From Holosporales bacterium (GTDB taxonomy: Bacteria > Pseudomonadota > Alphaproteobacteria > JAJTHO01), in assembly GCA_046318675.1 (NCBI GenBank), contig JBKCUA010000013.1:109042-173041 (forward strand): a stretch of DNA of 64,000 nt, in the 5' to 3' direction. The notes beneath the pieces were generated by a model. That model was not told where the DNA came from and did not search any database. It saw nothing but the letters and a program-made list of their open reading frames with translations. Within the stretch, counting starts at the first letter, position 1. Each line of letters starts with the position of its first letter. Below, one piece after another: positions 45,831 to 64,000 of the stretch. The translations under genes and the position numbers were made by a program.

Positions 45831-45836
45831 AAATTT

Positions 45837-49106: not shown

Positions 49107-49109
49107 GTT

Positions 49110-49847: not shown

Positions 49848-49848
49848 C

Positions 49849-50115
49849 TTAACTTCCTTGAATCATGCGCTGAAAAAGTTCCAGGGTGAATCCCTGTAAA
49901 GTGCTAAACATAAAAGGAAGAAATAATGCTGTTGCGGCAAAGACAGCAATGACTTTTGGAACAAAGGACAGCGTACTTTCCTGTATCTGCGTAAGAGCTT
50001 GAAATAAAGATATTATAAGCCCAACAACAAGAGTAATTATAAGAAGTGGTGCCCCAACTTTTAGGGTTGTCCAGAGTGCTTGCTGGGTAATCTCTAAAAC
50101 ATCACCGAAGTTCAT
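49849..50115 (-). CDS. fliQ: flagellar biosynthetic protein FliQ
   Basis: 88 aa from internal Met; GLIISLFQALTQIQESTLSFVPKVIAVF matches the FliQ/SctS signature. Confidence 0.8.
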   Translation of the reverse strand: MNFGDVLEITQQALWTTLKVGAPLLIITLVVGLIISLFQALTQIQESTLSFVPKVIAVFAATALFLPFMFSTLQGFTLELFQRMIQGS

Positions 50116-50175
50116 AATGTTGGATGTAAAAGTCAATGGTTGATAAATTGTAAACAACAAGCAAAATGTGTACCT

Positions 50176-51096
50176 ATGATAATCATTCTTTTACAGCGTA
50201 TAGCACCCTTATATGTTTATGTTTTATTAGGATTTTTTGCTGGTCGTTTTTTAAAAATAGACAGACAACAAATGGCGCGTTTGGTTATTTATCTGATTGC
50301 ACCGTTGATGTTTTTAGGTTCGGTGAGTATTGCCCCATTAGATATCCGTTATTTGTTATTACCCGTTATTACTTTTGTTTTGGCAATATTTATGAGTGGG
50401 TTAATGTTTTTGTTGGTTGGAAGATTTTATCCGGATGCGCGGCGTTATCTTATTGCTTCAATATCTGGTACTGGAAATACGGGATATTTTGGTGTGCCAG
50501 TCTTTTTGACCTTGGCTGGATCAGAGGCATTGGGTGTGTATATGCTGGCAATGTTGGGGATGACTTTTTTTGAGGCTAGTATAGGTTATTACCTTATCGC
50601 GAGGGGTAACTATTCCGTGCGAGATAGCATGAAGCGGTTGTTAATGCTGCCAACACTTTATGCGGTTGGGTTGGGATTATTGGTTAAGGTGAGTGGCGTG
50701 GCTATTCCTACTTGGATGTTGACGGGTCTTGAGCAAGTACGCGGGGCTTATGTGGTTCTTGGCATGATGTTGGTGGGTGTGGGATTATCAATGGTGCGAC
50801 GACTTCAATTTGATATTGCTTTTAATTTCATCTTGCTATTGATGCGATTTGTTTTTTGGCCAATTTTAGTGATGGGAGTATTAGCTTTAGATTATGTATT
50901 TTTAGGATTTTTTGATTCATTAGCACGCACAGCTCTATGGGTGCTGGCTATTGTACCTTTGGCTGCTAATACTGTTGCGTTTGCAAGTGAAATGAATCTT
51001 CATCCGGAAAAAACAGCTACGGCAGTTGCAATTAGTACCGTGTTGGCAATATTTACCGTTCCACTCGTTGCACAGACATTGTTTCTCTTTTTTTGA
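50176..51096 (+). CDS. AEC-family (auxin efflux carrier-like) transporter
   Basis: about 306-aa polytopic membrane protein with two-fold repeat topology typical of the AEC family; ORF begins 50140. Confidence 0.65.
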   Translation: MIIILLQRIAPLYVYVLLGFFAGRFLKIDRQQMARLVIYLIAPLMFLGSVSIAPLDIRYLLLPVITFVLAIFMSGLMFLLVGRFYPDARRYLIASISGTGNTGYFGVPVFLTLAGSEALGVYMLAMLGMTFFEASIGYYLIARGNYSVRDSMKRLLMLPTLYAVGLGLLVKVSGVAIPTWMLTGLEQVRGAYVVLGMMLVGVGLSMVRRLQFDIAFNFILLLMRFVFWPILVMGVLALDYVFLGFFDSLARTALWVLAIVPLAANTVAFASEMNLHPEKTATAVAISTVLAIFTVPLVAQTLFLFF

Positions 51097-51574
51097 TGGG
51101 ATCAGATACTGAAATTTTTTCACCCCAAGATTCTATAAGTTTTTTTTGTAACCCTACGTTATATTTTATGCCACTTTGGTGATGCCAAATAAGTATAGTT
51201 CTAATAATTTGTGGAGTAACGATGATAATACCCCATCCAACGCCCGCAGCACTAAGAATTCCAAGCCACTCTCTTGCATCGTTGAGAATTTCAAATCCAG
51301 CGGCGAGACTCCACCCTAAAGGAAGAACCCTAATAAGGGTTGGAGCAATGCCAGCAGCATTCATTATAATGACAGATAAGGCTATACGTTTATTGGGATT
51401 TTTATCCCATGACCATGCTACTAGTCCAGGAAGCATACCTATTGTACAAAGAAGAACTCCGGATAAAGAAATTAAAGACATACAAAGAACAATAAGTCCG
51501 TAAAGAAATTTCACTTTTCCAGTCCAAGATTTTTTTAAATTTGGCGCTCTATTGGGGTTATTTTTTATTTTCAT
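51053..51574 (-). CDS. hypothetical 4-TM membrane protein (T4SS-cluster associated)
   Basis: 173 aa, four predicted TM helices; no recognised family; last gene in the minus-strand T4SS transcript direction. Confidence 0.4.
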   Translation of the reverse strand: MKIKNNPNRAPNLKKSWTGKVKFLYGLIVLCMSLISLSGVLLCTIGMLPGLVAWSWDKNPNKRIALSVIIMNAAGIAPTLIRVLPLGWSLAAGFEILNDAREWLGILSAAGVGWGIIIVTPQIIRTILIWHHQSGIKYNVGLQKKLIESWGEKISVSDPIKKRETMSVQRVER

Positions 51575-51578
51575 GAAA

Positions 51579-53621
51579 TCACATCCTTAATAGGAAAAAA
51601 CAAATAGCAGAAAATAGAGCAATAATTGGAGAAACAACGGCGGTTTTCTTAGCCACAAGGGAATTTATATCTTGTAAGGCATACCGATGAAGGTTTATTT
51701 TTTTATCGATTCTCAAGTATTCGTTGCGTGCATTTTTGAATTCAATGGAATCTTTTTGTCGTTCTTGAGGGCTGTCAATAATATCTAAAATTTTTAAGAA
51801 AGAGCCACTTTGTGCAGCTTGGTCAAGATTTTTAGTAATCTGTGCGCGACGTGGTTCACTATTAAAATGATCAAGATTCTGTTGCAAGGTTTTACTAAAC
51901 CATGTTGTTATTTTTGGAAAAGATTTATTTCCGTTTTTTTGATTTATTGAATGGAAAATACGAAGTAATGCAATATGTGGTATCCAAGGTTGGCTCTTAT
52001 CATTTAATTGACGAAAATATTCTTCTTTTAAAAACTTACAGCGGCTGGCAATAAATGCAGTAATATGTCTATCAATAATAGGATTTTTATAATTTAGATC
52101 AGTATATTTATTTAGCATTGCCTCAAGAGCTGGAAGAATATCTATAGATTCAAGGACTATAGTGTCCTCAAGAATAGAACTTAAACAAGCAGCTTGCGGA
52201 TTAAGCTCATAAAAACATCGCTCAAATCCATAACCAAGTCCTTGGTTCATTATAACAGTTTTGAGAAGTTCTAAAATTTTATCAAGGCGATTTTGTTCTT
52301 CGGAAATAGAACTTTGAGCACGTAACCAAGAAGATGCAAGACCATGTCGGATAATGTCTGTACAAAATTGTCGTTTCTGGTTATCAAAAAGTCCGGCAAG
52401 AAATAGACCCCCAAGCCCATTAATATCAATGGCAACACCTTGATAAAACAAGGGTGCTTCAGGGCATAGAGCAATCAGGGCTTTCGCACTGGTAACGCTT
52501 GGGGGTTGGGTTGCTCGTGTGGCAACGGCAAATATTTCATGCAATGAATTGGCTACATCTTCTGCTTCAAGACTTCGTCGAAGCCATATGTTCATTTTAT
52601 TATCTTGTAGAATTTTTAATGCACTATCCTTGGTTTTTCCTAGTGCATAAACAAGTGATGGAATATTGATATAGTTTATATTATTAAATATTAATGCCCG
52701 ACCAGCTTTTTTCGGAAATGTGGGCACTTTTGGCGATATGCTTTGTCCACCTAACCATTGGGATACTTGATCGATTGTCCATCGGTTTTCTGGATTATCA
52801 TGTAAGGTGCCTTTAAGAAAATCCATCATTTCTTTAGAAAATCGTTTATCGCCGATAAAAGTAGCTAAAGTACCGTTCGTTGTTTTTTTAAAAAGAAGAT
52901 TATCCAGCGTAAGATTTTGTGCGGGATTTTCTCCTTCCAAAAGATGCAAACTAAGTATTCCAAGATTATAAATATCTTCTTGAAATCCGTTGGTACTTTT
53001 TTTATTGGCAGGATCAATAAGCATCATTTCAAGGGGTTCAACGGTAAACGGTATTCTCCAACCAAGATGACCCATGAAGCATTCACCTAAAACAATCGAT
53101 GTTTTTGTATGATCAGAATAAAATATATTACTTGGAGATAAAAATCTGTAAGATAATGAGTTTTTTTGTAATTCGGCAAGTGTATTAATAATCGGACGAA
53201 TAAAAATTTCACGAACATTGAGTTCTGTCCACGGGGTTATTTTTTGTTTGCCGCCCTCAGGAAAGACAGAAGATCCAGGTAAGGGCGCAACAGCGAATAA
53301 AAGACTACCAAAACCAGCACCCAGTGTTTTTTTTTCATAGGCTTCAGGACAAAGAATCGTTGCGTTTGACGTTTTTTTTAGTAGTTCGAGCATATCATAG
53401 CGCGGTGACATCATTTTATCGGCCATGAAAGCAACCATTAAACGTTCTTCATTTAGTAAATCTGTTGCTTTAAAAGCAAAAACCTGACCAAGCGAAAGAT
53501 CATGCATACATTCATGAATAATATCGCCCATATGGACAATGTAACGCTCGCTCAGAATAATTTGGCTTTTTTTACGGCCATCGGTGCCGTCCTGAGGCTG
53601 CGGTTCTTTAATTAAAGTCAC
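51579..53621 (-). CDS. membrane-anchored protein with degenerate Hanks-type protein-kinase-like (pseudokinase) domain
   Basis: 680 aa; Gly-rich-loop-like LGAGFGSLLFAV, degenerate catalytic loop YRFLSPSNIF (cf. HRDLKPSNIL; catalytic Asp and Lys absent), subdomain IX-like DIYNLGILSLHLLEGENP, subdomain XI-like LHDNPENRWTIDQV; C-terminal TM helix. Confidence 0.5.
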   Translation of the reverse strand: MTLIKEPQPQDGTDGRKKSQIILSERYIVHMGDIIHECMHDLSLGQVFAFKATDLLNEERLMVAFMADKMMSPRYDMLELLKKTSNATILCPEAYEKKTLGAGFGSLLFAVAPLPGSSVFPEGGKQKITPWTELNVREIFIRPIINTLAELQKNSLSYRFLSPSNIFYSDHTKTSIVLGECFMGHLGWRIPFTVEPLEMMLIDPANKKSTNGFQEDIYNLGILSLHLLEGENPAQNLTLDNLLFKKTTNGTLATFIGDKRFSKEMMDFLKGTLHDNPENRWTIDQVSQWLGGQSISPKVPTFPKKAGRALIFNNINYINIPSLVYALGKTKDSALKILQDNKMNIWLRRSLEAEDVANSLHEIFAVATRATQPPSVTSAKALIALCPEAPLFYQGVAIDINGLGGLFLAGLFDNQKRQFCTDIIRHGLASSWLRAQSSISEEQNRLDKILELLKTVIMNQGLGYGFERCFYELNPQAACLSSILEDTIVLESIDILPALEAMLNKYTDLNYKNPIIDRHITAFIASRCKFLKEEYFRQLNDKSQPWIPHIALLRIFHSINQKNGNKSFPKITTWFSKTLQQNLDHFNSEPRRAQITKNLDQAAQSGSFLKILDIIDSPQERQKDSIEFKNARNEYLRIDKKINLHRYALQDINSLVAKKTAVVSPIIALFSAICFFLLRM

Positions 53622-53706
53622 GCCTATATTTACCTTGTTGGAATAAAATGGAATCCAAAGATAAAGATAGTATAGAAGTACTAATGTTTCGTAATCGCTT
53701 CGATTT

Positions 53707-55755
53707 TTAAGATGAAGCTAGTTCTAAACTAGCTTTCATGGCTTTTTTAAGCCTTTCTTGCTCTTGTTCGGCAAGGTACTCTGTTTTTCGCCGTTCCATC
53801 ATAAAAGCAGGCATAGGGGGAGCGGCTTTATATTTACCGCCTTTGCTTGGATCCACAAGGGTTTTGAGGACGGGATGTTTGTAATATGCTGGGGTATCAC
53901 ACAAAATAGGCCGAGAAAGATACCCTTGAAAAAGGACATAATGCTTTCCTTTGGGAATGGTCATAAAATCTTCGGGGCGGAGCAAGGGTTGTCCCTGCAG
54001 GCTACGCTGAACGTTGGCGGCAAACGGGTTTGTCTCTCGGCTTACCCCCATGGTGCGGGAACGAGAGGCCGTTTCCACGGTGCGTTGACCCACCATTTCT
54101 GAAAAGCGTTTCGCAGTAGTCTCATTGTTCTGGGCAAGAACAACCTTGGCGGCAGTGGTGGAAATAACCGTTTCTACCTCGTCCTTGCCGTACACGGCGG
54201 TAATCTGCCCTAAATCTTGGCCAATCATCAAAAAGCTTACTTTTTGACCCCGACCAACAGCGGGTCCATCAATCAATGCGCGCAGTTTGGGCATTTGTGG
54301 AAATTCATCAAGAACGAACAATGCAGCAAAAGGACCAACCTTGCGACCATCAGCAGTGGATGACTTTGGTGGGTGGGCAACTAGCCAGGCGGAGAGAGCT
54401 TCGACCAGCAGCCCAGTGATAACGCCCAGAGCTTTGGCATCTTGCTGGGTTACGCAGACATAGATGCTCATGGGTTTATATTCCCCAGTTACCGGATCGC
54501 GCATCCCTCGTACGTCCATGAAGGAAAAATCGCTTTGACTGGTACGATCGCGGACAGCTTTATTTTTAAACACAACAAGACCCCCGTCCATGGTGGACAT
54601 GATAGAGCCACGTTCTTTATCGGGGGTATTGGCCAAGGCTGTAAGTTCTAAGATGGCACGATTACTATAATTACCCGCACGGCATTCTTTTACGGCATCT
54701 GTGAGCATATCCCGCATAGGATCGGCACTCATGGCTGCCATTGGATTGGTTTTGCGAAGCTGTTCAACTTTTTCTTGGGCGGAAATTTGTGCTTCTGTCA
54801 TCCAATCCAGTAGCATAGGAATGCTTGGTTCTTTGCCTTGCCAATTTAGAGGTATATTATTCCAGTTCCCTGCTTCTATTTTTGAGCATAAATAGTGAAT
54901 GAATCCGGCCAGCACGGCTCGTCCTCGTTTTGTCCAGTGGGGATCGGCACTGCCCTTTGGTTCTTCGATAAGAATATTGACCAAGCGATCAACGTACAAA
55001 TCGCGCTGTGCCCCTGGGGGAGGCATAGAAGACGGAGAAAGAGCATTCCATCGTGGATAGAAAATCCCCTTTTCTGGCTGATCAGATGCTGCCCATTCTA
55101 GCTTGAGGCAAAAGCTGTGTTGGCTGCGATAGCCACTTGTAATATCAAAAAGTTCCGGCTTAACGTCATTAATAATCATGGACACGTTATTACAGGTAAG
55201 AATAGTAGGCACGACAATAGCGACGGTTTTACCAGTTCCAGGGGGGGCAACGCACAGGACAGATAAAGTTTCGGGAAGTTTAAGGAATTTACGTTGATAT
55301 TCGCCTAGAACGACAATCCAACCTTTAAGAAGCTGCATTTTGTCAACGTCACGTTTGGTTGCCATTCGGGCATTACCAAAAGTTGTTACCAAAAAGGTGT
55401 AAGGATTGCTTAGCATAAACCCGACAAAAACCACCAAGGTACCGCCCAATGCCGTAACAATCTCAACGGGTAGAAAAATAAACCGCCAATCGTAGGGGTT
55501 TCCGTGGCGAATAGTGGTAATCCAGTTGAGATGCCATTGCCACCAAGCAATAGGATTTTTGGCCATACCAAAATATTGTTCTACTGCCATGACGACTTTT
55601 TGTGAGACACCAAACTTAATAAATGTATATGTTGCTGTAACTAAAGGCACAAAGAAAAAAAAGGCGATAACAGACCCGATAAGCACCTGAAAAAGATATA
55701 GGGTTGCCTGCTTTTGTTCGGCGTAATCTTGGCGGTTAAAGGGGCTTAGAACCAT
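53707..55755 (-). CDS. virD4: type IV secretion coupling protein VirD4/TraG
   Basis: 682 aa; N-terminal TM helices, Walker A PPGTGKTVAIVVPT, TraG/VirD4 family blocks. Confidence 0.9.
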   Translation of the reverse strand: MVLSPFNRQDYAEQKQATLYLFQVLIGSVIAFFFFVPLVTATYTFIKFGVSQKVVMAVEQYFGMAKNPIAWWQWHLNWITTIRHGNPYDWRFIFLPVEIVTALGGTLVVFVGFMLSNPYTFLVTTFGNARMATKRDVDKMQLLKGWIVVLGEYQRKFLKLPETLSVLCVAPPGTGKTVAIVVPTILTCNNVSMIINDVKPELFDITSGYRSQHSFCLKLEWAASDQPEKGIFYPRWNALSPSSMPPPGAQRDLYVDRLVNILIEEPKGSADPHWTKRGRAVLAGFIHYLCSKIEAGNWNNIPLNWQGKEPSIPMLLDWMTEAQISAQEKVEQLRKTNPMAAMSADPMRDMLTDAVKECRAGNYSNRAILELTALANTPDKERGSIMSTMDGGLVVFKNKAVRDRTSQSDFSFMDVRGMRDPVTGEYKPMSIYVCVTQQDAKALGVITGLLVEALSAWLVAHPPKSSTADGRKVGPFAALFVLDEFPQMPKLRALIDGPAVGRGQKVSFLMIGQDLGQITAVYGKDEVETVISTTAAKVVLAQNNETTAKRFSEMVGQRTVETASRSRTMGVSRETNPFAANVQRSLQGQPLLRPEDFMTIPKGKHYVLFQGYLSRPILCDTPAYYKHPVLKTLVDPSKGGKYKAAPPMPAFMMERRKTEYLAEQEQERLKKAMKASLELASS

Positions 55756-56842
55756 CTTTTTTCGCCCTTATTTTTGTCATGCTAGCAGGTTTTTGTACCA
55801 GCGTCACCCCTGATGCTTCATGGGCAACTTTTTTGACAAGATTTGGCGCATCCACAGCGGTGATGATGCGTTTTCCTGAAGATCTATCGATTTGAACAAT
55901 TCGGCCAAAGCTGCGGGCAAGAATTTCAACGGCGGCCTCGGCATCGAGTTCTGGATCAGTCTGGGTGAGGTTTTGCCAGAACGCCCGCAATGCCATTTCT
56001 GGTGAATCGGCGTGAATGGTTGCCATAAAGTTGGAATGACCAGTAGTCATTAAACGGTATATACTTTTAGCATTGGTAACCGAAACCTCTCCGCAGACAA
56101 TAACATCAGGCGTCATTCGGACAACGGTATCAAGGATATGAGTATAGCCAATCTTGTTGGCACCGGCGGTACGCGAAACAACAAAATGAACACGGTTAGG
56201 GTGAGGAACAACAACTTCTCGTGTGTCTTCCACGGTCACAATGCGTTTGTCACGCGGAATAAAATCAATAAGGGCGTTTAAAAATGTTGTTTTTCCTGTA
56301 GATGTTGCGCCGGATATTAATACAGCTTCGCCATGTTGTACGGCGGATACCAAATCTTCATAAGGAAAATCGCTGTAACGCTTTTTTTCAACGCCTCGAT
56401 GCACTAAGTCTTCTTTTGTTTTTTGTTGAGGGCGCAAATCAAAATCATCGAGGCTGAATTTTTTATTCAGATCAAAACGTCTTATACATATAGCTACCCC
56501 ATTGGTATCACCCATTTCATAGCGCACATTGGTGCCAAGCACTGCCTGAAAACGATGTCCTTGTGGTAAGGTTGCGGCAAGAATAGGAAGATCATTGAGA
56601 TCAAAAGACTGTTCTGTAATATTGGCGAGCATTCTACAAAGGGCGTGCAAACTGCGCAGATTTAATTCTGTTGCCGCAACAGGTTCCCACCCAGGCTTTC
56701 CATGTTTTTTTATCATGATTTCGCTGGGACGATTGATGGCGATTTCTTCTACTTCTCTGCTGGAATAATATTTTTCAATGGGCTGAAGTGCCCTGAGGAG
56801 AAGGGGATTATCAAGAGCGGTGCTATTGTTAAAAGTACTCAT
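55736..56842 (-). CDS. virB11: type IV secretion ATPase VirB11
   Basis: 368 aa; Walker A GATSTGKTTFLNAL and conserved His box of the VirB11/GspE-like family. Confidence 0.9.
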   Translation of the reverse strand: MSTFNNSTALDNPLLLRALQPIEKYYSSREVEEIAINRPSEIMIKKHGKPGWEPVAATELNLRSLHALCRMLANITEQSFDLNDLPILAATLPQGHRFQAVLGTNVRYEMGDTNGVAICIRRFDLNKKFSLDDFDLRPQQKTKEDLVHRGVEKKRYSDFPYEDLVSAVQHGEAVLISGATSTGKTTFLNALIDFIPRDKRIVTVEDTREVVVPHPNRVHFVVSRTAGANKIGYTHILDTVVRMTPDVIVCGEVSVTNAKSIYRLMTTGHSNFMATIHADSPEMALRAFWQNLTQTDPELDAEAAVEILARSFGRIVQIDRSSGKRIITAVDAPNLVKKVAHEASGVTLVQKPASMTKIRAKKDGSKPL

Positions 56843-56846
56843 AAGG

Positions 56847-58556
56847 CTAAGGTTTGTTTATAGTTGGATTAACATTGGGGCGGCCTGGACCATAATTATT
56901 TGCGGCGCTGCCGACTTGATTGGTGCCGCTGTTATCAACACCAAAAGCACCAGCAGGGGAGCCGCCTGTATCTAGGCCAGGCTGGCCAAGTGCACCCGCT
57001 TTCGATACTTGGCCTATAATTTCAATCAGGCGTTCAGAACCTCCAGCAATATCACCGCGTTGCAGGGCGCGAATAAGTGCTTGAGCCTGACTCACAAGAT
57101 TTCCGGCTTCACCCGCAACAGTAAGAAGCTGCGGGGTTTTGAATTCAATATCCTGTGTGGGAAGGATAACAAACCGCGTTCCGGCGGGAACAGTGATAAT
57201 GGGCTGAAGGGCAACGGTATTCTGGATAAATTCTTGGGATTTTTGTACTGCGTCAGCACTGAGCTGGCGTACCGCTTGATTTTCTCGTGTGGTTGTCTCG
57301 GAAGTGGATGTGCCAAGAACGCCCAATGCGCCTGTGGTGGTAGTCGTGGTGACTTGTGAGGGTGATGCGGCATAATTAGCCGCAACTCCAATGGCAGAAA
57401 CCAAAAGTGGTATTCCAAAGCGATCAAAAAGACGGTTATCAACATCGCCTATTAAGCCAACGCGCCCCATGGGATCAGCAGAAGGAGAGCGAACATTTAT
57501 ACCAACACCGTCAGGACGAATGATGCGATTCCAGACAACGGAAAGCCGTGACGTTCCCGCCTTGTTAGACCCGTCGTATTCACCAATGGCGCGACTGCCC
57601 GCGGGAATAAGTATGTTACGACCTTCAGCAGAATAAACGTGGTTTTCTATAATGGCAATAACACGTCCTTTGGGGATTTGTGAGCTGATGGTGTTTTCCA
57701 GAACGGCTGGAATATAGCGATCGCTGGTAATCATCCGCGTTCTGTCAATCGGGTATGTTGCCACTGTTTTACCATAACCAATATCTTTGTAGTCTGAGTC
57801 AGACATAATCCATTGATTGCGTTGTTGACCAGTAAAGGAAGGAGTGCTGCTGAGGCGACCTTGGCGACGTTCCATTTGCATACGCATGGCCTCAATTTGT
57901 TGCTGTGTTGGGCCTTCGGGTTTTTGTTGAGCAATTTCGGGGGGAATATAGGCTTCGGCACCGGAACCGGAAAGCTGTATAATAAGGCTGTCGTTCTGAC
58001 CGTTATGGGTGATGACAATACTGGCGGAAATTTTCTGATTATTAACTGGTCTGAACGTAACCTCAAGACGGCAAGCTTTTCTAGAAGGATCAAGCACAAC
58101 CCCAGATAGACAATTTCCGCCGAGGATAAATTCTGTTACGGTCTGCGGGTTAAGGGTGATATTTTTGATGGTGAGTGGCTCATCACCCTCATTTTCAAGT
58201 GTAATGTCACGAGTTTGATCGTCCCCAATGGCGTTACCACTGCCAAAATCAATATTGCCGGTAAGATTTGTTAATAAAGCCGGCTTTTTCGGAGCGTCTT
58301 GTTGTTGACTGGCGATATTAAGCAGATCCTGCACCGGGGTGGCGTCAGCTTTTTGCTCCTGTTGTAGTTGTTGGGGAGCTTGTTGTTCGCTTTTGCCACA
58401 GGCAGATAAGCCCAATACAGCTAAGAATACAATGGCTATGACTAGAAAGTTGTGAAATCCAAAAAGGGGAGCATCCTTGCTCATCATCTGTTTGCCTCGC
58501 TTTCGATACAAACAGTATGGCAAAAATTTAAAATATGTCAATAAAATTTGTGACAT
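56847..58556 (-). CDS. virB10: type IV secretion protein VirB10/TrbI
   Basis: 569 aa; N-terminal TM anchor, Q/P-rich linker, C-terminal TrbI domain (RLSVVWNRIIRPDG…GLIGDVDNRLF). Confidence 0.8.
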   Translation of the reverse strand: MSQILLTYFKFLPYCLYRKRGKQMMSKDAPLFGFHNFLVIAIVFLAVLGLSACGKSEQQAPQQLQQEQKADATPVQDLLNIASQQQDAPKKPALLTNLTGNIDFGSGNAIGDDQTRDITLENEGDEPLTIKNITLNPQTVTEFILGGNCLSGVVLDPSRKACRLEVTFRPVNNQKISASIVITHNGQNDSLIIQLSGSGAEAYIPPEIAQQKPEGPTQQQIEAMRMQMERRQGRLSSTPSFTGQQRNQWIMSDSDYKDIGYGKTVATYPIDRTRMITSDRYIPAVLENTISSQIPKGRVIAIIENHVYSAEGRNILIPAGSRAIGEYDGSNKAGTSRLSVVWNRIIRPDGVGINVRSPSADPMGRVGLIGDVDNRLFDRFGIPLLVSAIGVAANYAASPSQVTTTTTTGALGVLGTSTSETTTRENQAVRQLSADAVQKSQEFIQNTVALQPIITVPAGTRFVILPTQDIEFKTPQLLTVAGEAGNLVSQAQALIRALQRGDIAGGSERLIEIIGQVSKAGALGQPGLDTGGSPAGAFGVDNSGTNQVGSAANNYGPGRPNVNPTINKP

Positions 58557-58565
58557 AAATCACTT

Positions 58566-59924
58566 TTATGGCTGGGGTGTGGTTGAGTGTTTTTTGGGTG
58601 CAACTTTTTTCTTTGATTTTTCAGGTTTAATATCTGTTTTTGCAGGTTGTTCGAGTGGTGATTCTTGAACAACCTGGGTTGTCGGGGCAATAGAAACACC
58701 ACTGTCATCTTTTATCAATGGGGTAGAGGGAAATGGCCGTGGTGGTTTAACGTCGGTGTGTCCGATAACATTTGGAGATTCAAGGATTAAACCTAGATTG
58801 CGATCTTGGCCAATAGTCACGCCAGGTAAAAACACGGAGCGCCCACCTTCAATAACAAATGACTGGGTGGTTGAAATCAAAGGTAAAGTATCAGGCAGAC
58901 GGCAGGGTGCACTTGGCCGTTCTAGTGTTATTGCATTCATGGTTAAATTGACTCCTAGAATACCCTCTTGATTGCGTGTGGCTAATTGTAATGTTGTTGC
59001 CCCCATCGGGTTATCCAGCATTGGGCAACCTTCTGTGGCAGTATTAACGCCGGCAGAGGCTTGTATTTCCCCGCCAAGTGGAACAATAATAAGGCCATTT
59101 TCAATAATACTGTTGCCTAAACGCTGTGCTGTCAGGCGCCGAACAACATCATCGGCGGTAAATTTTCCTAACCAGGCGTCGTTTTGTTCTACAGCACCAG
59201 GTACAAGATCAGTCGGTGAGGCTGTGCTCGCATAGCTAATAAGCCGTGTACGGAAAGCCACCGTAGGTAGACGGCGTTGTTCTTGTAAGAATGATTCTAC
59301 GGCAGCTAAGCTAGATCGACTGGCGGTGAAATGTAACAGGCGTTCTTTGCTGTCAATGTTGACATTAACAGCTCCGGCGGCAGTGATGGCTTCAACAAAA
59401 GAGCGATAGGGATTGCGGGACGCGTTGTATAAGGCGGCATTACTTTTTGGATTGTCTCTTTGATAATCACTAAAGAAGCCCAAGGGAGGAAGGGGTACGG
59501 TGTAGCTGAGCGTTTGTTTTAGATAGAGGGTTTGCCCCTGGCGCAATACGAAAAAATTATTATCTTGGCCTAAAGTATTTAATGCTTCGTCAAGGGTTCC
59601 TGATAAATTAATATTTTGTAGGCCTCGATCGGAAATCCCCGTATCAATATTTAGCTGTAAATCACTGTCCGCAATTAATCCGAGCAATACATCGGATAGT
59701 AATGCTTCTGGTAAAACAATGGATTTGATAGGTCGATTGGGGAGAGGCTCACCTAATTGATCTTGATAAGCCCAGAAAAACGGCCGATTCGTGGCACTGT
59801 CTATAGCAACAGGTATTACAGGCTTAACAATAGAGGGTTCTGGCGGCGTGATTGTTGCGCATCCTGTCATGAATAAATATAAAGCTGTCACTATAATGTT
59901 TTGATTTTTTAATTTTTTTGACAT
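58566..59924 (-). CDS. T4SS-associated lipoprotein with secretin-N0/STN-like domain
   Basis: 452 aa; lipobox LFMTGC; N0/STN-like segment INLSGTLDEALNTLGQDNNFFVLRQGQTLYL; Lys/Pro-rich C-terminal tail. Confidence 0.45.
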   Translation of the reverse strand: MSKKLKNQNIIVTALYLFMTGCATITPPEPSIVKPVIPVAIDSATNRPFFWAYQDQLGEPLPNRPIKSIVLPEALLSDVLLGLIADSDLQLNIDTGISDRGLQNINLSGTLDEALNTLGQDNNFFVLRQGQTLYLKQTLSYTVPLPPLGFFSDYQRDNPKSNAALYNASRNPYRSFVEAITAAGAVNVNIDSKERLLHFTASRSSLAAVESFLQEQRRLPTVAFRTRLISYASTASPTDLVPGAVEQNDAWLGKFTADDVVRRLTAQRLGNSIIENGLIIVPLGGEIQASAGVNTATEGCPMLDNPMGATTLQLATRNQEGILGVNLTMNAITLERPSAPCRLPDTLPLISTTQSFVIEGGRSVFLPGVTIGQDRNLGLILESPNVIGHTDVKPPRPFPSTPLIKDDSGVSIAPTTQVVQESPLEQPAKTDIKPEKSKKKVAPKKHSTTPQP

Positions 59925-59951
59925 TGTTTAATCTCCTATTTTTTCAGGTAA

Positions 59952-61592
59952 TTATTTGATCCATCCTTGCTGAATAGCAGTAGGAGATGGTGGGGGTGAA
60001 TCGTAGGTGCGTGCGCCGCTGAAGGGCAGTACAGGCATAGATTGGATGGGCGGACGTTGGCCGAAACCAGTACCAGCTGTTGCGGGTACTGTGGTAACAG
60101 AGTTTTGATTATAAATGCTTTGTGGCCTAGTATAGCCCGGAGGTAGCATATGAGTGGTAGATGGCATATTGCTATATAATTGCGGGCCGCCAACGCTGGC
60201 CGGGCCAGCGATACTGATATTATTGGCTACGCCGCCGTAAGCTTGACTGTAACTGCCGGGTTGCGGGGCGGGCTGAAGTGGCACAACGGGGGCGTTTTGG
60301 TAGTTGGCGATCCCTTGTGCTGCAATAGGCCCAGCAACGGCGGGGATGGAACTGCCGCCAATGGCGCCGCCATTGCCATTGGCGAAGTTGGGCTGGCGAT
60401 TAACCCCGCCAATAGGAGCACCGCTGTATTGTGCGCCAAGCCCGGCATCGGCAACACCATCAGGGCGATTGTTGAAGAATAGGGAAGGATCATTGCTGGG
60501 TACTGGCGGTGGCATACTGCGATTGCCTTCGAAGGTTCTTGGCGCGCCGGCCTGGTAAACACAGACGACGCGATCGCCATTGCGTAAGGTGAAATTGCCA
60601 ATGGCTTCGGCAACAATGATATTGCCATTTGGCCCCATGGTTCGGGTGTTGACCATACTGTCTACACCATCAACCACGCGGAAGACGACTGGACGGCGGA
60701 CGGTATCGGCTTTTTCACCGTAATCAAAATACGTCCATAGGCCATCGGTGAACGCTCGAAGGGGGGCAATCTCTACGTCGGCTGGGGTGGGGGCGTAAAT
60801 TTTTAAATCAAAGCGCAGATTGGTGGGATCAAAAGCAATGGAGCGAACAAAATCCGGTTTGGTGGGAGCAGTGCTTCCGGTGAAGGCAGTACCGCTGGGT
60901 GTGCCGGTGAGGCCACTCATGGGTTGATTCACAAAAGGCTGTCCCGTCAAGGCATTGATAGGAGTTCCGGAGCCGGGTGCCATGGGAACGGCACCAACGC
61001 TTCCCGATGCGCCGGAATTGGCGGGGTTGGCTAGAACAAATACCGTGAAATCGGTGATATTTTTGGAGTTCCATCCCTCTGAACGCAAATAAAAGTTATA
61101 TATATTGCCCGATGCGCCAATAACGGTCATGTTGGTATCGGCTCCAGGATGGGTGGGGCGGATAGCAATCATATAATCTCTACTTAGTTTTTGGGCTTCG
61201 AAAACGGTTCTGTCCCCCAGAATAACCTCTGAAATGCTCTCCCATTGCGGTAATTCAATGGTAGTTTGCATAAATTCCCGCGTTCTGATCGCCATGACGT
61301 AGTCAGGCCGCCAGACGTAGCGAACGATGCCGGGGGAAATTTGGCCACTACTGGGGGCTGGGTTGTTCCAGCTTTGTTGAATTGCTCCCAGCGGTGTTAA
61401 ATCCCGAATCATTTGGGGATAGTTGCCTTGGGACTGTTGTTGCATATCTTGTTGTGTTTGTTGAATAAAGTCAGGCTGCCCTGTGTCTGTTGGTGCCACA
61501 TTCGGATTGCCTAATGGTGGTGCAAGACCAATCTGCGCCCATGCGGGAACAGCTAAAAATAGGCTAACTATTAAGGGTAGAAACCCCTTCAT
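59952..61592 (-). CDS. virB9: type IV secretion protein VirB9 (CagX/TrbG-like) with long low-complexity C-terminal extension
   Basis: 546 aa; signal peptide; VirB9 blocks (YVWRPDY…, RPTHPGADTNMTVIGASGNIYNFYLRS); about 240-aa G/P/A/Q-rich tail. Confidence 0.8.
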   Translation of the reverse strand: MKGFLPLIVSLFLAVPAWAQIGLAPPLGNPNVAPTDTGQPDFIQQTQQDMQQQSQGNYPQMIRDLTPLGAIQQSWNNPAPSSGQISPGIVRYVWRPDYVMAIRTREFMQTTIELPQWESISEVILGDRTVFEAQKLSRDYMIAIRPTHPGADTNMTVIGASGNIYNFYLRSEGWNSKNITDFTVFVLANPANSGASGSVGAVPMAPGSGTPINALTGQPFVNQPMSGLTGTPSGTAFTGSTAPTKPDFVRSIAFDPTNLRFDLKIYAPTPADVEIAPLRAFTDGLWTYFDYGEKADTVRRPVVFRVVDGVDSMVNTRTMGPNGNIIVAEAIGNFTLRNGDRVVCVYQAGAPRTFEGNRSMPPPVPSNDPSLFFNNRPDGVADAGLGAQYSGAPIGGVNRQPNFANGNGGAIGGSSIPAVAGPIAAQGIANYQNAPVVPLQPAPQPGSYSQAYGGVANNISIAGPASVGGPQLYSNMPSTTHMLPPGYTRPQSIYNQNSVTTVPATAGTGFGQRPPIQSMPVLPFSGARTYDSPPPSPTAIQQGWIK

Positions 61593-62323
61593 CGTGCTTC
61601 CATCCGTTGATAAGTAAGCACTGTAAACCCAAGAGGGTTAAGATATTGTTCACTTAAAGACACAGCCTGTTGCCTAAAGCCAAAAGTGACGCGGGAAATC
61701 CACGATTTTCGCCCTTTGACAGTGCCGCGTTTATCAATGACTGTTATCTCAAAGTACACTTCGATTACATTGGAGCTTATCCGTTGTGTTCTAAATATCT
61801 CAACATTCTGTCCAAGATTTGCATCACGAATTTTGGGATAGACATCAGCCATTTCTTTAAGAAAGGATTCAAATTCGCGTTGTGGTACGCGGGGTCTGAT
61901 GTACTGCGTCCAGCGCCGTTGTTGTTCTTGTTCATCAAAAACAAACTCCTCACGAATTTTGACGAATTCGTTGGCCATGCTTTCTATAAGAAGTTGGAAA
62001 CCACTGGCGTCCTTGCTGATGGGCTCAATGCGTACAATCTGTTGATTTTTATCGCTGAAGGTGAGTAAAAATGGTTCTACCCGCTTTAGGGGGGTGAGGA
62101 CGCTTATGGTAAAGACCAGTACAACATTGAGCAACATACTCACGGTAAAGGCCAGCGCAAACACGCGGGTGGTGAATAGCTGGCGTTTGCCTTCTAAGGC
62201 CGGAACGCTGACATCGGCGGGGTAGGCACCTATTTTATCTTCCCCTGCATAGGGGGCAGGGCGGAGCGATTCGCCAGTATTGACGCCACCAAAAGCTGCT
62301 TTGAGTTTATCGCCCAGTCCCAT
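61589..62323 (-). CDS. virB8: type IV secretion protein VirB8
   Basis: 244 aa bitopic: cytoplasmic N-terminus, one TM, periplasmic NTF2-like domain with VirB8-like pattern; position between VirB7-like and VirB9. Confidence 0.7.
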   Translation of the reverse strand: MGLGDKLKAAFGGVNTGESLRPAPYAGEDKIGAYPADVSVPALEGKRQLFTTRVFALAFTVSMLLNVVLVFTISVLTPLKRVEPFLLTFSDKNQQIVRIEPISKDASGFQLLIESMANEFVKIREEFVFDEQEQQRRWTQYIRPRVPQREFESFLKEMADVYPKIRDANLGQNVEIFRTQRISSNVIEVYFEITVIDKRGTVKGRKSWISRVTFGFRQQAVSLSEQYLNPLGFTVLTYQRMEAR

Positions 62324-62337
62324 GAATATTCCTTATT

Positions 62338-62520
62338 CTAGGTGTTGCCAACAATAACCGTTCCCCATTGCTGGGGGACTTCAAGACAGGCGCAGGGGCT
62401 TTGTTTCAAGGCATCGGGGGCGCGGCCAATGCCTACGGGTTCCGGCACTTCTTTGCTGCCAAAAATAAAACTACAGCCTCCCAAGAGGAGAGATATTAAT
62501 AGAACAAATCCAAGCCTCAT
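62338..62520 (-). CDS. small VirB7-like lipoprotein
   Basis: 60 aa; lipobox LLGGCS; immediately upstream of virB8. Confidence 0.45.
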   Translation of the reverse strand: MRLGFVLLISLLLGGCSFIFGSKEVPEPVGIGRAPDALKQSPCACLEVPQQWGTVIVGNT

Positions 62521-62575
62521 CCCTTCGCTCCCTTTGTTGTATTAAAGGTTTGGAGTAAGTGTAGGCGTGGGAAGG

Positions 62576-63988
62576 TTACTGATTCGTTAAAATTGTCCGA
62601 ACGTCGGTCAGGTGGCCATGAATGGCGGCGGCGGCGGCCATGATGGGGCTGACAAGATGGGTGCGCCCTCCCCTGCCTTGCCTGCCTTCAAAGTTGCGGT
62701 TGGAGGTGGAGGCACAGCGTTCCCCCGGTTCCAAGCGATCGGCGTTCATGGCCAGGCACATTGAACAGCCTGGCTCCCGCCAGTCAAACCCGGCGTCGCG
62801 GAAAATTTTGTCGAGGCCTTCGCTTTCGGCTTGTTCTTTGACCAGACCAGAGCCGGGGACGACCATGGCGCGTACGCCAGTTTTGACGTGTCGGCCTTTG
62901 GCGATGCTGGCGGCGGCGCGGAGGTCTTCGATGCGGCTATTGGTGCAACTGCCAATGAACACGGTATCAATGGCGATACTGTCCAGCGAACTGCCAGGCG
63001 TAAGACCCATATATTCCAGCGATCGGGCGACTGCTTTCTGGCGACCTGAATCGTTGAAATCCGAAGGATACGGAACCTTTCCGGTAATGGGGAGGACATC
63101 CTGCGGGCTGGTGCCCCATGTGACATGAGGAGCTAGATCCGCCGCGTTTAAGGTTACTTCCCGATCAAAGACAGCATCAGTATCGCTGTGCAAGGTTTTC
63201 CAGTAGGCGACCGCTTGATCCCATAAATCCCCCTTGGGGGCGAGGGGACGACCCTTGAGGTAGGCGAAGGTTTTTTCATCCGGGGCGATAAGACCCGCCC
63301 TAGCTCCAGCCTCAATGGCCATGTTGCAAATGGTCATCCGTTCTTCCATGGATAACCCGCGAATGGCGGAGCCGGCAAACTCCAAGACATAGCCGGTGCC
63401 GCCCGCTGTGCCGATAGTACCGATAATAGCAAGGACGATATCCTTCGCGGTGACGCCAAGACCCAAGGTTCCGTCTACCGTGATCCGCATATTCTTGGCT
63501 GGTTTTTGCAACAACGTCTGAGTGGCCAGAACGTGCTCAACCTCAGAGGTACCAATACCAAAAGCTAACGCCCCAAACGCGCCGTGGGTCGAGGTGTGGC
63601 TGTCGCCGCAGACAATAGTGGTACCGGGTAAGGTAAACCCCTGTTCCGGACCGATAACGTGGACAATGCCCTGCCGTTTATCATCCATGCCAAAACAGGT
63701 TATTCCAAACTCGGCGGCATTGTGCATCAGGGTATCCACCTGAAGCTTTGATTCTGGATCGGCAATGCCCTTGACCCGGCCCTCGGTGGGGACGTTGTGA
63801 TCGGGCACGGCCAGCGTGGCCTTGGGTGCGCGCACCTTGCGACCGGAAAGTCTCAACCCTTCAAAGGCTTGAGGGCTGGTCACTTCGTGCACCAGATGGC
63901 GATCAATGTACAGAATGGTGGTGCCGTCGTCTTGAGCATGAACAACGTGGGCGTTCCAGATTTTATCAAACAGTGTCTGTGCGGGCAT
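62576..63988 (-). CDS. leuC: 3-isopropylmalate dehydratase large subunit
   Basis: 470 aa aconitase-family; Fe-S cysteine ligands and conserved LeuC blocks. Confidence 0.9.
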
Positions 63989-64000
63989 AGAGGGGTATTA

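What the first reader, a model, noticed from the sequence alone, without database searches (positions are those of the whole stretch)
58566..59924. 452-aa lipoprotein with secretin-N0/STN-like domain between virB9 and virB10
Canonical virB operons have nothing between virB9 and virB10. This lipoprotein (lipobox LFMTGC) contains a segment INLSGTLDEALNTLGQDNNFFVLRQGQTLYL resembling N0/STN domains of secretins and of Xanthomonas-type VirB7. It also has a Lys/Pro-rich tail. It may be an expanded VirB7-like or pilotin-like outer-membrane core component. A separate 60-aa VirB7-like lipoprotein also exists at 62338..62520.
Basis: inference. Interest (0 to 1): 0.6.

Follow-up and report, generated by a model that had tools for sequence, protein, structure and literature searches.

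The report
Trimmed secretin inside a virB operon
The gene between virB9 and virB10 encodes a shortened, lipid-anchored relative of the secretins (outer-membrane pore proteins of pili and type II/III secretion), apparently left from a pilus gene block that once sat there and probably kept as an extra part of the type IV secretion machine.

Summary
A 452-aa ORF (58566..59924, minus strand) with a signal peptide and lipobox lies between virB9 and virB10. A separate 60-aa VirB7-type lipoprotein lies upstream of virB8. The ORF matches no Pfam or NCBIfam family, and every public copy is called "hypothetical protein", mostly from Holosporales MAGs.

It is homologous to lipoprotein secretins along its whole length: linker, N0, N3-like ring domain and a secretin-type beta-domain shortened by an estimated 50-65 residues. 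Profile comparison gives 99.85% probability (E 8e-31). Each domain matches only its cognate secretin domain. An AlphaFold2 model (pLDDT 79) finds only secretins among its first 46 PDB matches, with BfpB best.

Related T4SS operons carry a genuine secretin in the same slot, followed by PilB-like and PilC-like genes. In one contig (L022) a block of about 10.8 kb, containing this pilus module, sits between virB9 and virB10.

The target family has lost those partners and the Pfam secretin signature. It has gained an invariant cysteine pair and is under purifying selection (dN/dS 0.10; N0 region 0.04).

The best reading is a secretin remnant co-opted as an accessory outer-membrane or periplasmic ring of the T4SS. 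The "expanded VirB7 or pilotin" reading is not supported. Function is inferred, not shown.

The parts
59859..59924 (-). Signal peptide and lipobox (residues 1-22; FMTG|C, Cys22 followed by Ala)
   Evidence: The lipobox pattern matches in the target and in most family members. Cys22 is present in at least 90% of the family. An AGGAG Shine-Dalgarno sequence ends 8 nt before the ATG.
59733..59858 (-). Linker after the lipidated Cys (residues 23-64). Its C-terminal part carries the conserved motif K/RPFF...G-x-PLP (47-64), shared with true secretins.
   Evidence: pLDDT is low for residues 23-44. The hhalign match to secretins starts at residue 47. P62 is invariant in the family. It occupies the same position as the LG (lipidation and BfpG-binding) domain of BfpB (PMC12531336).
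59475..59732 (-). N0 (STN-like) domain (residues 65-150).
   Evidence: hhalign against the secretin N0 part gives 99.4-99.5%, E 2.5e-21 to 4e-22, and 0.8% or less against non-cognate parts. pLDDT is about 90-95. This is the most constrained region: dN/dS 0.037 and 40% mean family identity.
59127..59474 (-). N3-like ring-building domain (residues 151-266)
   Evidence: hhalign against the cognate secretin part gives 97.2%, E 3-4.5e-11. The model shows helix-strand-strand-helix at 174-217, a long strand at 221-232 and a small hairpin. dN/dS is 0.064.
58740..59126 (-). Shortened secretin-type beta-domain (residues 267-395) with invariant Cys300 (59025..59027) and Cys341 (58902..58904), ending in the motif LILE-x-P-x-x-IGH (secretins have ELVIVMRPRVIRF)
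   Evidence: hhalign of residues 223-395 against the C-domain of 23 secretins gives 93.6%, E 2e-7 over 136 columns, while 20 shuffled-column controls gave 0.3% or less. The model has about 8 strands of 12 residues or fewer, with pLDDT 72-93. PF00263 does not match at E <= 1. From the alignment I estimate it is about 50-65 residues shorter than the closest true secretins, and it lacks RPGDTxLIGG. dN/dS is 0.087.
58566..58739 (-). Disordered Lys/Pro-rich tail (residues 396-452) and stop codon
   Evidence: pLDDT is below 50. It has 9 K and 10 P in 57 residues, 40% identity to the 77% orthologue and dN/dS 0.28.
62338..62520 (-). 60-aa VirB7-type lipoprotein (lipobox LLGGC; motif LKQSPCACLEVPQ)
   Evidence: The ORF is present. 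It is conserved directly upstream of virB8 in every related locus, at 44-66% identity. Its K-x-S-P-C motif resembles the [KI]KSP+Cys motif of Rickettsia VirB7/ComB7 (PMC2653234).
61589..62323 (-). VirB8
   Evidence: PF04335, E 1.9e-23
59952..61592 (-). VirB9 (CagX domain plus a low-complexity C-terminal extension of about 190 aa)
   Evidence: PF03524, E 4.4e-27, matching residues 88-347 of 546
56847..58487 (-). VirB10 (546 aa from the MMSKD start) with a lipobox-like N-terminus and an Ig-like insert at about residues 97-199
   Evidence: PF03743 E 2e-44, PF22544 E 1e-5, NF012200 E 1.8e-10. Lipobox pattern VFLAVLGLSAC.
55736..56842 (-). VirB11 ATPase
   Evidence: TIGR02788, E 1.3e-58
53707..55755 (-). 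VirD4 coupling protein
   Evidence: PF02534, E 1.3e-59

Best explanation
The 452-aa protein is a divergent, shortened member of the secretin superfamily, of the self-piloting lipoprotein type (BfpB/PilN/MshL-like). Its layout is lipidated Cys, linker, N0, N3-like ring-building domain, reduced secretin beta-domain and disordered Lys/Pro tail.

It most likely descends from the secretin of a type-IV-pilus-like gene module (secretin, small partner, PilB-like ATPase, PilC-like platform protein and others). That module sat between virB9 and virB10 in an ancestor of this T4SS lineage. In the Holosporales-type lineage the pilus genes were lost and only the secretin gene was kept. It was trimmed, gained a conserved cysteine pair and stayed under purifying selection.

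The inferred mechanism is as follows. [quoted passage not shown] It oligomerises through its N0 and N3-like domains into a periplasmic ring associated with the VirB7/VirB9/VirB10 outer-membrane core. This would resemble the extra N0 rings supplied by Xanthomonas VirB7 or Legionella DotD. It probably contacts VirB10, whose gene it almost always precedes, and possibly the unusual Ig-like insert of that VirB10. It probably no longer forms a canonical gated double-barrel pore.

What is shown: homology, architecture, synteny and selection. What is inferred: direction of evolution, oligomerisation, partners and role in secretion.
For: Homology to secretins:
- Exhaustive phmmer found only 14 cluster representatives. 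Five of them (P0011-P0015) are Pfam-positive secretins matching target residues 37-234.
- Family profile against secretin profile: 99.85%, E 8e-31, target 47-392 aligned with secretin 73-492.
- Domain by domain, each part matches only its cognate part: N0 99.5%, N3-like 97.2%, C-domain 93.6% (E 2e-7). All 20 shuffled controls scored 0.3% or less.
- The AF2 model has pLDDT 78.9 and pTM 0.70. The first 46 Foldseek PDB matches are all secretins, with BfpB (9u5s_A) best at E 1.9e-11 over 461 columns.
- BfpB has the same domain order and also lacks an S domain (PMC12531336).

Origin:
- In L013/L014, L017 and L022 a true secretin follows VirB7-VirB8-VirB9 directly. Those proteins are homologous to the window's: VirB9 47-63% identity, VirB8 35-38%, VirB7 with the same SPCAC motif.
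- In L022 a block of about 10.8 kb lies between virB9 and virB10: secretin, PilB/GspE-like, PilC/GspF-like and further ORFs, the last three unannotated. That virB10 shares the window VirB10's lipobox-like N-terminus, Ig-like insert and IPAVLENTI motif.

Retention and link to the T4SS:
- The gene lies directly upstream of virB10 in five of six relatives examined, spanning 23-99% identity to the target.
- dN/dS is 0.10 overall and 0.037 in N0.
- Invariant C300, C341 and LPPxG.
- No pilus-module genes were found in the 64-kb window or in the fetched parts of five related contigs.
Against: - No experiment or complex prediction bears on oligomerisation or on contact with VirB9/VirB10. Function is inferred from homology and gene order alone.
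- The AF2 alignment included the true secretins, which may have pulled the C-domain model towards a secretin-like fold.
- The NJ tree does not place the family next to the virB9-adjacent secretins. The family is monophyletic 100/100, but its sister group is unresolved. The origin therefore rests on synteny.
- One family member (P0004) lies next to hisI on a 2.4-kb contig with no vir gene visible. Another (P0009) has virB10 but no virB9 beside it.
- Only 64 kb of this genome was seen, so pilus genes could lie elsewhere.
- It is the fastest-evolving protein of the operon.
Confidence: 0.55

Rival explanations
1. It is still a working, minimal secretin. It would form an outer-membrane pore for a type IV pilus or type II-like system encoded elsewhere in the genome, or for the T4SS itself, and it merely sits in the virB operon.
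For: - It is collinear with secretins along its full length, and the fold matches are secretins only.
- It is a lipoprotein like the self-piloting BfpB.
- It is under purifying selection.
- Only 64 kb of the genome was seen.
Against: - PF00263 gives no match at E <= 1 in the target or in the six other family members tested (P0003-P0006, P0009, P0010), while the true secretins tested score 63-71 bits.
- From the alignment I estimate that about 50-65 residues of the secretin domain are missing, including RPGDTxLIGG and the segment after it. The strands in the model are 12 residues or shorter.
- No PilB/PilC/partner genes were found in the window or in five related contigs.
- The window's VirB10 appears, from reading its sequence, to keep its own two-helix antenna region. 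If so, the T4SS does not need a substitute pore.
Confidence: 0.2
2. It is an expanded VirB7-like or pilotin-like lipoprotein. It would stabilise or target VirB9/VirB10 in the outer membrane, in the way that Xanthomonas VirB7 carries an N0 domain.
For: - It has a lipobox and an N0 domain, and it lies next to virB9 and virB10.
- Xanthomonas VirB7 is a precedent for an N0 domain in a T4SS core (PMC3093366, listed).
Against: - A separate RvhB7/ComB7-type VirB7 is present upstream of virB8 and is conserved in all related loci.
- The target has three domains homologous to secretin domains, not a VirB7 motif plus N0.
- No pilotin and no VirB7 structure appears among the 50 fold matches listed.
Confidence: 0.07
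3. It is a decaying relic of the lost pilus module with no present function.
For: - It evolves fastest in the operon (77% identity against 87-96% for the neighbours).
- The secretin signature and the partner genes have been lost.
- The tail is nearly unconstrained (dN/dS 0.28).
Against: - The ORF is intact in lineages down to 23% identity.
- dN/dS is 0.10 overall and 0.037 in N0, equal to the core Vir proteins.
- The family has its own invariant Cys pair and LPPxG motif.
- The gene has a good Shine-Dalgarno sequence and tight operon spacing.
Confidence: 0.08
4. It works independently of the T4SS as an outer-membrane lipoprotein. For example it could be an envelope tether, or a surface-exposed protein through its Lys/Pro tail. 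In that case the operon position is only historical.
For: - P0004 stands beside hisI without visible vir genes.
- Type IVb pilus secretins are reported to have extracellular C-termini (title of PMC4453517, listed).
- Tails in the family are long and variable.
Against: - Adjacency to virB10 is kept in five of six relatives examined, across very deep divergence.
- The most conserved part is N0, which in secretins is a protein-docking domain. The tail is the least conserved part.
Confidence: 0.1

Closest known systems
BfpB (EPEC bundle-forming pilus) and other lipoprotein secretins of type IVb/MSHA-type pili (PilN of R64, TcpC, MshL)
   Same: - N-terminal lipidated Cys and a linker, followed by N0, N3 and a secretin-type beta-domain.
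- No N1/N2 domains and no S domain.
- BfpB is the best PDB fold match (9u5s_A, E 1.9e-11).
- The nearest sequence relatives hit TIGR02519 (MshL) and TIGR02520 (PilN) below their cut-offs.
   Different: - The beta-domain is an estimated 50-65 residues shorter and fails PF00263.
- A family-specific Cys pair has been gained.
- No adjacent BfpG/TcpQ-like partner, ATPase, platform protein or pilin genes.
- The gene is embedded between virB9 and virB10.
Xanthomonas citri VirB7 (XAC2622) with a C-terminal N0 domain
   Same: An outer-membrane lipoprotein of a P-type T4SS that carries an N0 domain. It is a precedent for an extra N0 ring around the core complex (PMC3093366).
   Different: - VirB7 is about 139 aa, with a VirB9-binding motif plus N0 only, and it is the system's VirB7.
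- Here a separate VirB7 exists. The target also has N3-like and secretin-type domains and lies after virB9.
Legionella DotD (type IVB secretion)
   Same: A lipoprotein with a secretin-like N0 domain in a T4SS outer-membrane core (PMC2951367, listed).
   Different: DotD is small with a single domain, and belongs to the Dot/Icm system rather than VirB. No sequence or fold comparison was made here.
Conjugative elements that combine a T4SS with a type IV pilus (IncI plasmid R64 pil operon; PAPI-1 island)
   Same: - A type IV pilus module with a lipoprotein secretin is carried together with T4SS genes (PMC12857230).
- The same module occurs on a Rhodoferax MPF_T conjugative plasmid and on an element carrying an integrase and ParM.
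   Different: - In the known cases the pilus genes form a separate cluster.
- Here the module, or its remnant, is interleaved within the virB7-virB11 operon, and in the window only a trimmed secretin survives.
Rickettsiales vir homologue (rvh) T4SS
   Same: - Chromosomal, scattered T4SS genes in an alphaproteobacterium.
- A virB8-virB9-virB10-virB11-virD4 block.
- VirB7 with a K-x-S-P-C motif (PMC2653234).
   Different: No secretin-like gene is described between rvhB9 and rvhB10. The organism here is Holosporales-like, not Rickettsiales.

Membership tests
Secretin family (Pfam PF00263; GspD/PilQ/InvG/pIV) | C-terminal secretin domain that matches the family model | tested here: not met
   PF00263 gives no match at E <= 1 in the target or in P0003-P0006, P0009 and P0010. 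The true secretins tested score 63-71 bits.
Secretin family (Pfam PF00263; GspD/PilQ/InvG/pIV) | Remote homology of the C-terminal domain to the secretin domain | tested here: met
   hhalign of residues 223-395 against the C-domain of 23 secretins gives 93.6%, E 2e-7 over 136 columns. Twenty shuffled controls gave 0.3% or less. The C-terminal strand motif (LxLEPxxIRF against ELVIVMRPxxIRF) is shared.
Secretin family (Pfam PF00263; GspD/PilQ/InvG/pIV) | Periplasmic N0 domain followed by a ring-building (N1/N3-type) domain | tested here: met
   N0 99.5% (E 4e-22) and N3-like 97.2% (E 4.5e-11), each against its cognate part only. Foldseek matches the N0-N1 structures 3gr5, 3ezj and 4e9j.
Secretin family (Pfam PF00263; GspD/PilQ/InvG/pIV) | Homo-oligomer of 12-17 subunits forming a gated double beta-barrel pore in the outer membrane | not testable with these tools
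   Only a monomer model was available. Its short strands (12 residues or fewer) and the estimated 50-65 missing residues argue against a canonical barrel, but this is inference.
Secretin family (Pfam PF00263; GspD/PilQ/InvG/pIV) | Encoded with a cognate type II/III secretion, type IV pilus or phage assembly machinery (ATPase, platform protein) | tested here: not met
   No PilB/PilC/partner homologues were found in the 64-kb window or in L001, L011, L006, L008 and L009. The rest of the genome was not seen.
Lipoprotein (self-piloting) type IVb-pilus secretins (BfpB/PilN/TcpC) | N-terminal lipobox Cys preceding N0 through a linker (LG domain) | tested here: met
   Lipobox pattern with Cys22. A linker spans residues 23-64, and its conserved C-terminal part is shared with true secretins. 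Equivalence to the BfpB LG domain is by position only.
Lipoprotein (self-piloting) type IVb-pilus secretins (BfpB/PilN/TcpC) | Adjacent small N0-like partner (BfpG/TcpQ type) | tested here: not met
   virB10 follows the target after about 78 nt. The true secretins in L013, L017, L018 and L022 are followed by a small ORF of 143-264 aa.
VirB7 (including Xanthomonas VirB7 with N0) | Small lipoprotein encoded before virB8, with a VirB9-binding motif, acting as the system's only VirB7 | tested here: not met
   The target is 452 aa and lies after virB9. A distinct 60-aa lipoprotein with the RvhB7/ComB7-like K-x-S-P-C motif occupies the VirB7 position in all related loci.
Pilotins (PulS/AspS, MxiM, PilW/TadD types) | Small lipoprotein with a pilotin fold that binds a secretin S domain or barrel | tested here: not met
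   The first 46 fold matches are all secretins and none of the 50 listed is a pilotin. No cognate secretin gene is nearby.
DotD-like N0 lipoproteins of type IVB secretion | Single N0-like domain lipoprotein in the DotC/DotD/DotH core | not tested
   No direct comparison was run. The architecture differs (three domains against one).

The most novel reading that the evidence does not exclude
A secretin-derived ring is a stoichiometric structural subunit of a VirB-type (type IVA) secretion machine. It would dock on VirB10, perhaps through the Ig-like insert, in the way that GspC or PilP beta-sandwich domains dock on secretin N0. The L022/L013/L017-type loci would then represent chimeric machines in which a type IV pilus and a T4SS are built from one interleaved operon and may share an outer-membrane assembly. 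This would be the first direct evolutionary and structural bridge between secretin-based machines and type IVA secretion systems.
Probability: 0.3. Interest if true: 0.85.

Novelty: new variant of a known kind. Interest (0 to 1): 0.68.

Why it matters
Secretins are the outer-membrane portals of type II and III secretion, type IV pili and filamentous phages. Type IVA secretion systems are thought to cross the outer membrane without them, using VirB7/9/10.

A 2025 nomenclature review of T4SS diversity does not contain the word "secretin" at all (PMC12857230).

This locus and its relatives point to a T4SS lineage of intracellular (Holosporales-like) alphaproteobacteria in which three things hold:
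- A pilus module was inserted inside the virB operon.
- Its secretin was kept after the pilus was lost.
- That secretin was remodelled under selection.

If the protein is part of the machine, it adds a new kind of accessory ring to T4SS architecture. It would also be a natural example of a secretin being stripped to its ring-building core.

The family is unannotated in every public source. Naming it would improve the annotation of symbiont genomes.

Tried and rejected
- Single-sequence AF2 gave pLDDT 34 and was discarded.
- Sequence searches of the PDB with the target and with the family profile gave only chance matches. The combined profile hit only phage pIV, weakly (E 0.002).
- The word-indexed protein search found only close relatives, even with the alignment as query.
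- The search for related loci with the ten-member alignment failed because no stretch was conserved enough. The first metagenome scan, with A3, found nothing.
- The NJ tree of the N0-N3 region left the sister group of the family unresolved. An earlier version of the script timed out.
- Plasmid collection: no family member was found. The only hit was a remote N-terminal match to a true secretin of a Rhodoferax plasmid.
- Literature searches found no description of a secretin-like gene in a virB operon.
- Rejected: expanded VirB7, pilotin, and pseudogene. Reasons are given under the rival explanations.
- I did not map the missing segments onto the gate and lip elements of solved secretins, because no model coordinates or reliable residue-level alignment to a solved structure were available.
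Full report
**1. Observation**

- The window holds a minus-strand gene row:
  - a 60-aa lipoprotein (62338..62520)
  - VirB8 (61589..62323, PF04335)
  - VirB9 (59952..61592, PF03524)
  - the 452-aa target (58566..59924)
  - VirB10 (56847..58487/58556, PF03743)
  - VirB11 (55736..56842, TIGR02788)
  - VirD4 (53707..55755, PF02534)
- leuC lies upstream (read from the translation; the syntenic gene in L001 hits the Pfam Aconitase family). The rest of the window holds chromosomal housekeeping genes: PBP1, class I LysRS, MnmG, SHMT, RadA and others.
- The target starts 27 nt after the virB9 stop, behind an AGGAG Shine-Dalgarno sequence. It ends about 78 nt before the likely virB10 start.
- Its N-terminus fits the lipobox pattern, with Cys22 followed by Ala.
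- The tail (396-452) is rich in Lys and Pro.

**2. No database name**

- The target matches no Pfam or NCBIfam family at E <= 1 and no PDB sequence.
- An exhaustive phmmer search of 1.84 billion cluster representatives found only 14 proteins.
- Nine of these form the target's own family: P0001 and P0003-P0010, at 25-99% identity. P0002 (77%) came from the word-indexed search.
- Every public copy is labelled "hypothetical protein". Where a taxon is given it is mostly "Holosporales bacterium" (MAGs), or "Alphaproteobacteria bacterium".

**3. What it is**

- The other five hits (P0011-P0015) match only target residues 37-234. They are genuine secretins: PF00263 scores 63-71 bits in the four scanned (P0011, P0012, P0013, P0015), with partial hits to MshL/PilN/GspD/PilQ models. 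P0014 has a precomputed PF00263 hit.
- Several carry an N-terminal lipobox-type Cys.
- Profile-profile comparison of the family (A1) with these secretins (A2) gives 99.85%, E 8e-31. It is collinear from target residue 47 to 392 and from secretin residue 73 to 492.
- To make sure the N-terminus was not carrying the score, I cut both alignments into three parts. Each target part matches only its cognate secretin part:

| Target part | Probability | E-value | Controls |
|---|---|---|---|
| N0 | 99.5% | 4e-22 | non-cognate parts 0.8% or less |
| N3-like | 97.2% | 4.5e-11 | non-cognate parts 0.8% or less |
| C-domain (vs 23 secretins) | 93.6% | 2e-7, 136 columns | 20 shuffled-column controls 0.3% or less |

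- AlphaFold2 with the 15-sequence alignment gives pLDDT 78.9 and pTM 0.70, with about 90 over residues 50-395.
- The first 46 Foldseek PDB matches to the model are all secretins. The best is BfpB, the lipoprotein secretin of the EPEC type IVb pilus (9u5s_A, E 1.9e-11, 461 columns). InvG, PilQ, GspD/EpsD, pIV and the N0-N1 crystal structures follow.
- TM-scores are low (0.33 or less). I attribute this to comparing a three-domain monomer model with chains taken from assembled rings.
- One caveat: the alignment given to AF2 contained the true secretins.
- The BfpB paper describes the domain order lipidated Cys, LG linker, N0, N3, secretin domain, with no N1/N2 and no S domain (PMC12531336). This is the order seen here.

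**4. How it differs from a secretin**

- The beta-domain (267-395) fails PF00263.
- It lacks the motif RPGDTxLIGG and the roughly 30-residue segment that follows it in secretins.
- It has two further deletions. From the alignment I estimate about 50-65 residues missing in all.
- In the model it has about eight strands of 12 residues or fewer.
- It has acquired two invariant cysteines (C300, C341), which lie in loops between strands in the model. It also has an invariant LPPxG between N0 and N3.
- The C-terminal strand motif (LILE-x-P-x-x-IGH, compared with ELVIVMRPRVIRF in secretins) is retained.

**5. Selection**

- Against the 77% orthologue (L001), dN/dS is 0.10. The six neighbouring Vir proteins give 0.02-0.08. 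dS is 1.1-1.5, close to saturation, so these values are approximate.
- By domain:

| Region | dN/dS |
|---|---|
| N0 | 0.037 |
| N3-like | 0.064 |
| beta-domain | 0.087 |
| Lys/Pro tail | 0.28 |

- The gene is maintained. Its docking and ring domains are the most constrained parts.

**6. Genomic context of the family**

- P0001, P0002, P0003, P0005 and P0006 all lie in the row: small lipoprotein, VirB8, VirB9, family member, VirB10, VirB11.
- P0009 has only virB10 beside it, with ribosomal protein genes upstream.
- P0004 sits next to hisI on a 2.4-kb contig with no vir gene visible.
- The family is therefore essentially confined to T4SS loci. Its most constant neighbour is virB10.
- Four of these VirB10 proteins (window, L006, L008, L010) carry an Ig-like insert (PF22544/PF22073).

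**7. Origin**

- The true secretins P0012 (L013, L014) and P0011 (L017) are encoded directly after a VirB7-like protein, VirB8 and VirB9.
- Those proteins are clearly related to the window's:
  - VirB9: 47-63% identity
  - VirB8: 35-38% identity
  - VirB7-like: the same P-x-GIG...K-x-SPCAC-x-E-x-PQ motif
- Each secretin is followed by a small protein, a PilB/GspE-like ATPase, a PilC/GspF-like platform protein and conserved proteins of about 290 and about 160 aa.
- A metagenome scan with these secretins gave 29 more loci. In most contigs long enough to show neighbours the same module stands alone, with no VirB8/VirB9 hit next to it.
- The module also occurs on an element carrying integrase, ParM, primase and SSB genes and on the MPF_T conjugative plasmid of Rhodoferax ferrireducens T118.
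- In L022 the gene order is:
  - VirB4
  - VirB7
  - VirB8
  - VirB9
  - secretin (726 aa, PF00263 E 1e-19)
  - 218-aa protein
  - PilB-like ATPase
  - PilC-like platform protein
  - 285-aa protein
  - 162-aa protein
  - 91-aa protein
  - 256-aa protein (weak prepilin-like N-terminus)
  - 248-aa protein
  - 263-aa protein
  - VirB10
- That VirB10 has the same lipobox-like N-terminus, Ig-like insert and IPAVLENTI motif as the window's VirB10.
- This is the arrangement expected of an intermediate: a block of about 10.8 kb containing the pilus module sits exactly where the window has only the 1.36-kb trimmed secretin gene.
- No pilus-module genes remain in the window or in five related contigs.
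- An NJ tree of the N0-N3 region shows the family as monophyletic (100/100) on a long branch. It does not resolve its sister group. The inferred origin therefore rests on synteny, not on the tree.

**8. Mechanism (inferred)**

- The N0 and N3-type domains are what secretins use to build periplasmic rings and to dock inner-membrane partners.
- N0 domains on lipoproteins are already known as accessory rings of T4SS cores, in Xanthomonas VirB7 (PMC3093366) and DotD (PMC2951367).
- I therefore propose an outer-membrane-anchored ring that decorates the VirB7/9/10 core and contacts VirB10.
- The Ig-like insert of VirB10 is a candidate docking site. From my own knowledge of type II secretion and type IV pilus systems, the beta-sandwich domains of GspC and PilP bind secretin N0.
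- From reading its sequence, VirB10 appears to keep a hydrophobic helix, a Thr-rich loop and a second helix where the outer-membrane antenna lies in other VirB10 proteins. A replacement pore therefore seems unnecessary.
- My confidence in each step:

| Claim | Confidence |
|---|---|
| Homologous to secretins | about 0.95 |
| Derived from a pilus module located between virB9 and virB10 | about 0.75 |
| Acts as a T4SS accessory ring | about 0.45 |

**9. Comparison with what is known**

- The protein fails the defining sequence test for the secretin family (PF00263) and the context test (no cognate machinery). It meets the N0, N3, lipobox and remote C-domain homology tests.
- It is best described as a new, reduced subfamily of the secretin superfamily rather than as a secretin proper.
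- It is not a VirB7. A RvhB7/ComB7-type VirB7 with the K-x-S-P-C motif described by Gillespie et al. is present separately (PMC2653234).
- It is not a pilotin.
- Literature searches found no description of a secretin-like gene inside a virB operon. A 2025 T4SS nomenclature review does not contain the word "secretin".
- Known T4SS and type IV pilus combinations (R64, PAPI-1) keep the pilus genes in a separate cluster.

**10. Verdict**

- The finding is a new variant of a known kind: a trimmed lipoprotein secretin fixed inside a chromosomal VirB-type T4SS operon of Holosporales-like bacteria.
- Sister loci show the likely intermediate state.
- Function is unproven.
- Interest: 0.68.

Noticed in passing
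window 56847..58487 (-); also L022 ~20700..21524 and the VirB10 genes in L006, L008 and L010: VirB10 has an Ig-like insert (HYDIN/VesB/choice-of-anchor-D type, about residues 97-199). Its N-terminus fits a lipobox pattern (VFLAVLGLSAC) rather than looking like a plain bitopic anchor. The Ig-like insert is present in four VirB10 genes next to a family member (window, L006, L008, L010), and the sequence shows it in L022, which has a true secretin.
   Followed up: partly
L022 7694..21524; L013 7600..15687; L017 7606..17272: A type-IV-pilus-like module (secretin, small protein, PilB-like ATPase, PilC-like platform protein, and proteins of about 290 and about 160 aa) follows virB7-virB8-virB9 directly. 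In L022 virB10 comes after the module, so pilus genes are interleaved within a virB operon.
   Followed up: partly
L050 (Rhodoferax ferrireducens T118 plasmid NC_007901.1) 10560..13944: The same pilus module on an MPF_T/MOBH conjugative plasmid has two tandem secretin paralogues (471 aa with a partial PF00263 match, and 622 aa). The target family aligns full-length to the shorter one (99.1%, E 1e-18).
   Followed up: partly
window 51053..53621 (-): A 680-aa ORF with a weak protein-kinase C-lobe match (PF00069, E 7e-7, below the cut-off) and a 173-aa membrane ORF lie just downstream of virD4 in low-GC DNA (about 0.37). They are absent from the 77% relative (L001). They could be a horizontally acquired effector pair.
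   Followed up: no
window 45453..51096 compared with L001 16421..21425: The block gcvH-pgsA-rsmB-aroB-fliR-fliQ-membrane transporter is inverted relative to the T4SS operon when compared with the related Holosporales contig.
   Followed up: no
window 59952..61592 (-): VirB9 is 546 aa. The CagX domain ends near residue 347, and the remaining roughly 190 residues are a Gly/Pro/Gln/Ala-rich low-complexity extension.
   Followed up: no
window 62338..62520 (-): The 60-aa VirB7-type lipoprotein has two adjacent Cys in the motif LK-x-SPCAC-x-E-x-PQ. The motif is conserved in all related loci, including those with a true secretin. It resembles the [KI]KSP+Cys motif reported for Rickettsia VirB7 and ComB7.
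   Followed up: partly
P0003 and P0006 (L006, L009), C-termini: Two distant family members have long low-complexity tails that end in a shared motif GVIVNPxxGL. The window protein lacks it.
   Followed up: no
window 58566..59924 (-), start codon: NCBI annotates a 434-aa form of a near-identical MAG protein (MFN7901869.1). By length it would start at Met19 and remove the signal peptide. The Shine-Dalgarno sequence and the conserved lipobox favour the 452-aa start.
   Followed up: partly
window 1..64000: GC content ranges from 0.35 to 0.60 across the window (highest at 14-20 kb, lowest at 48-54 kb), which suggests a mosaic composition.
   Followed up: no
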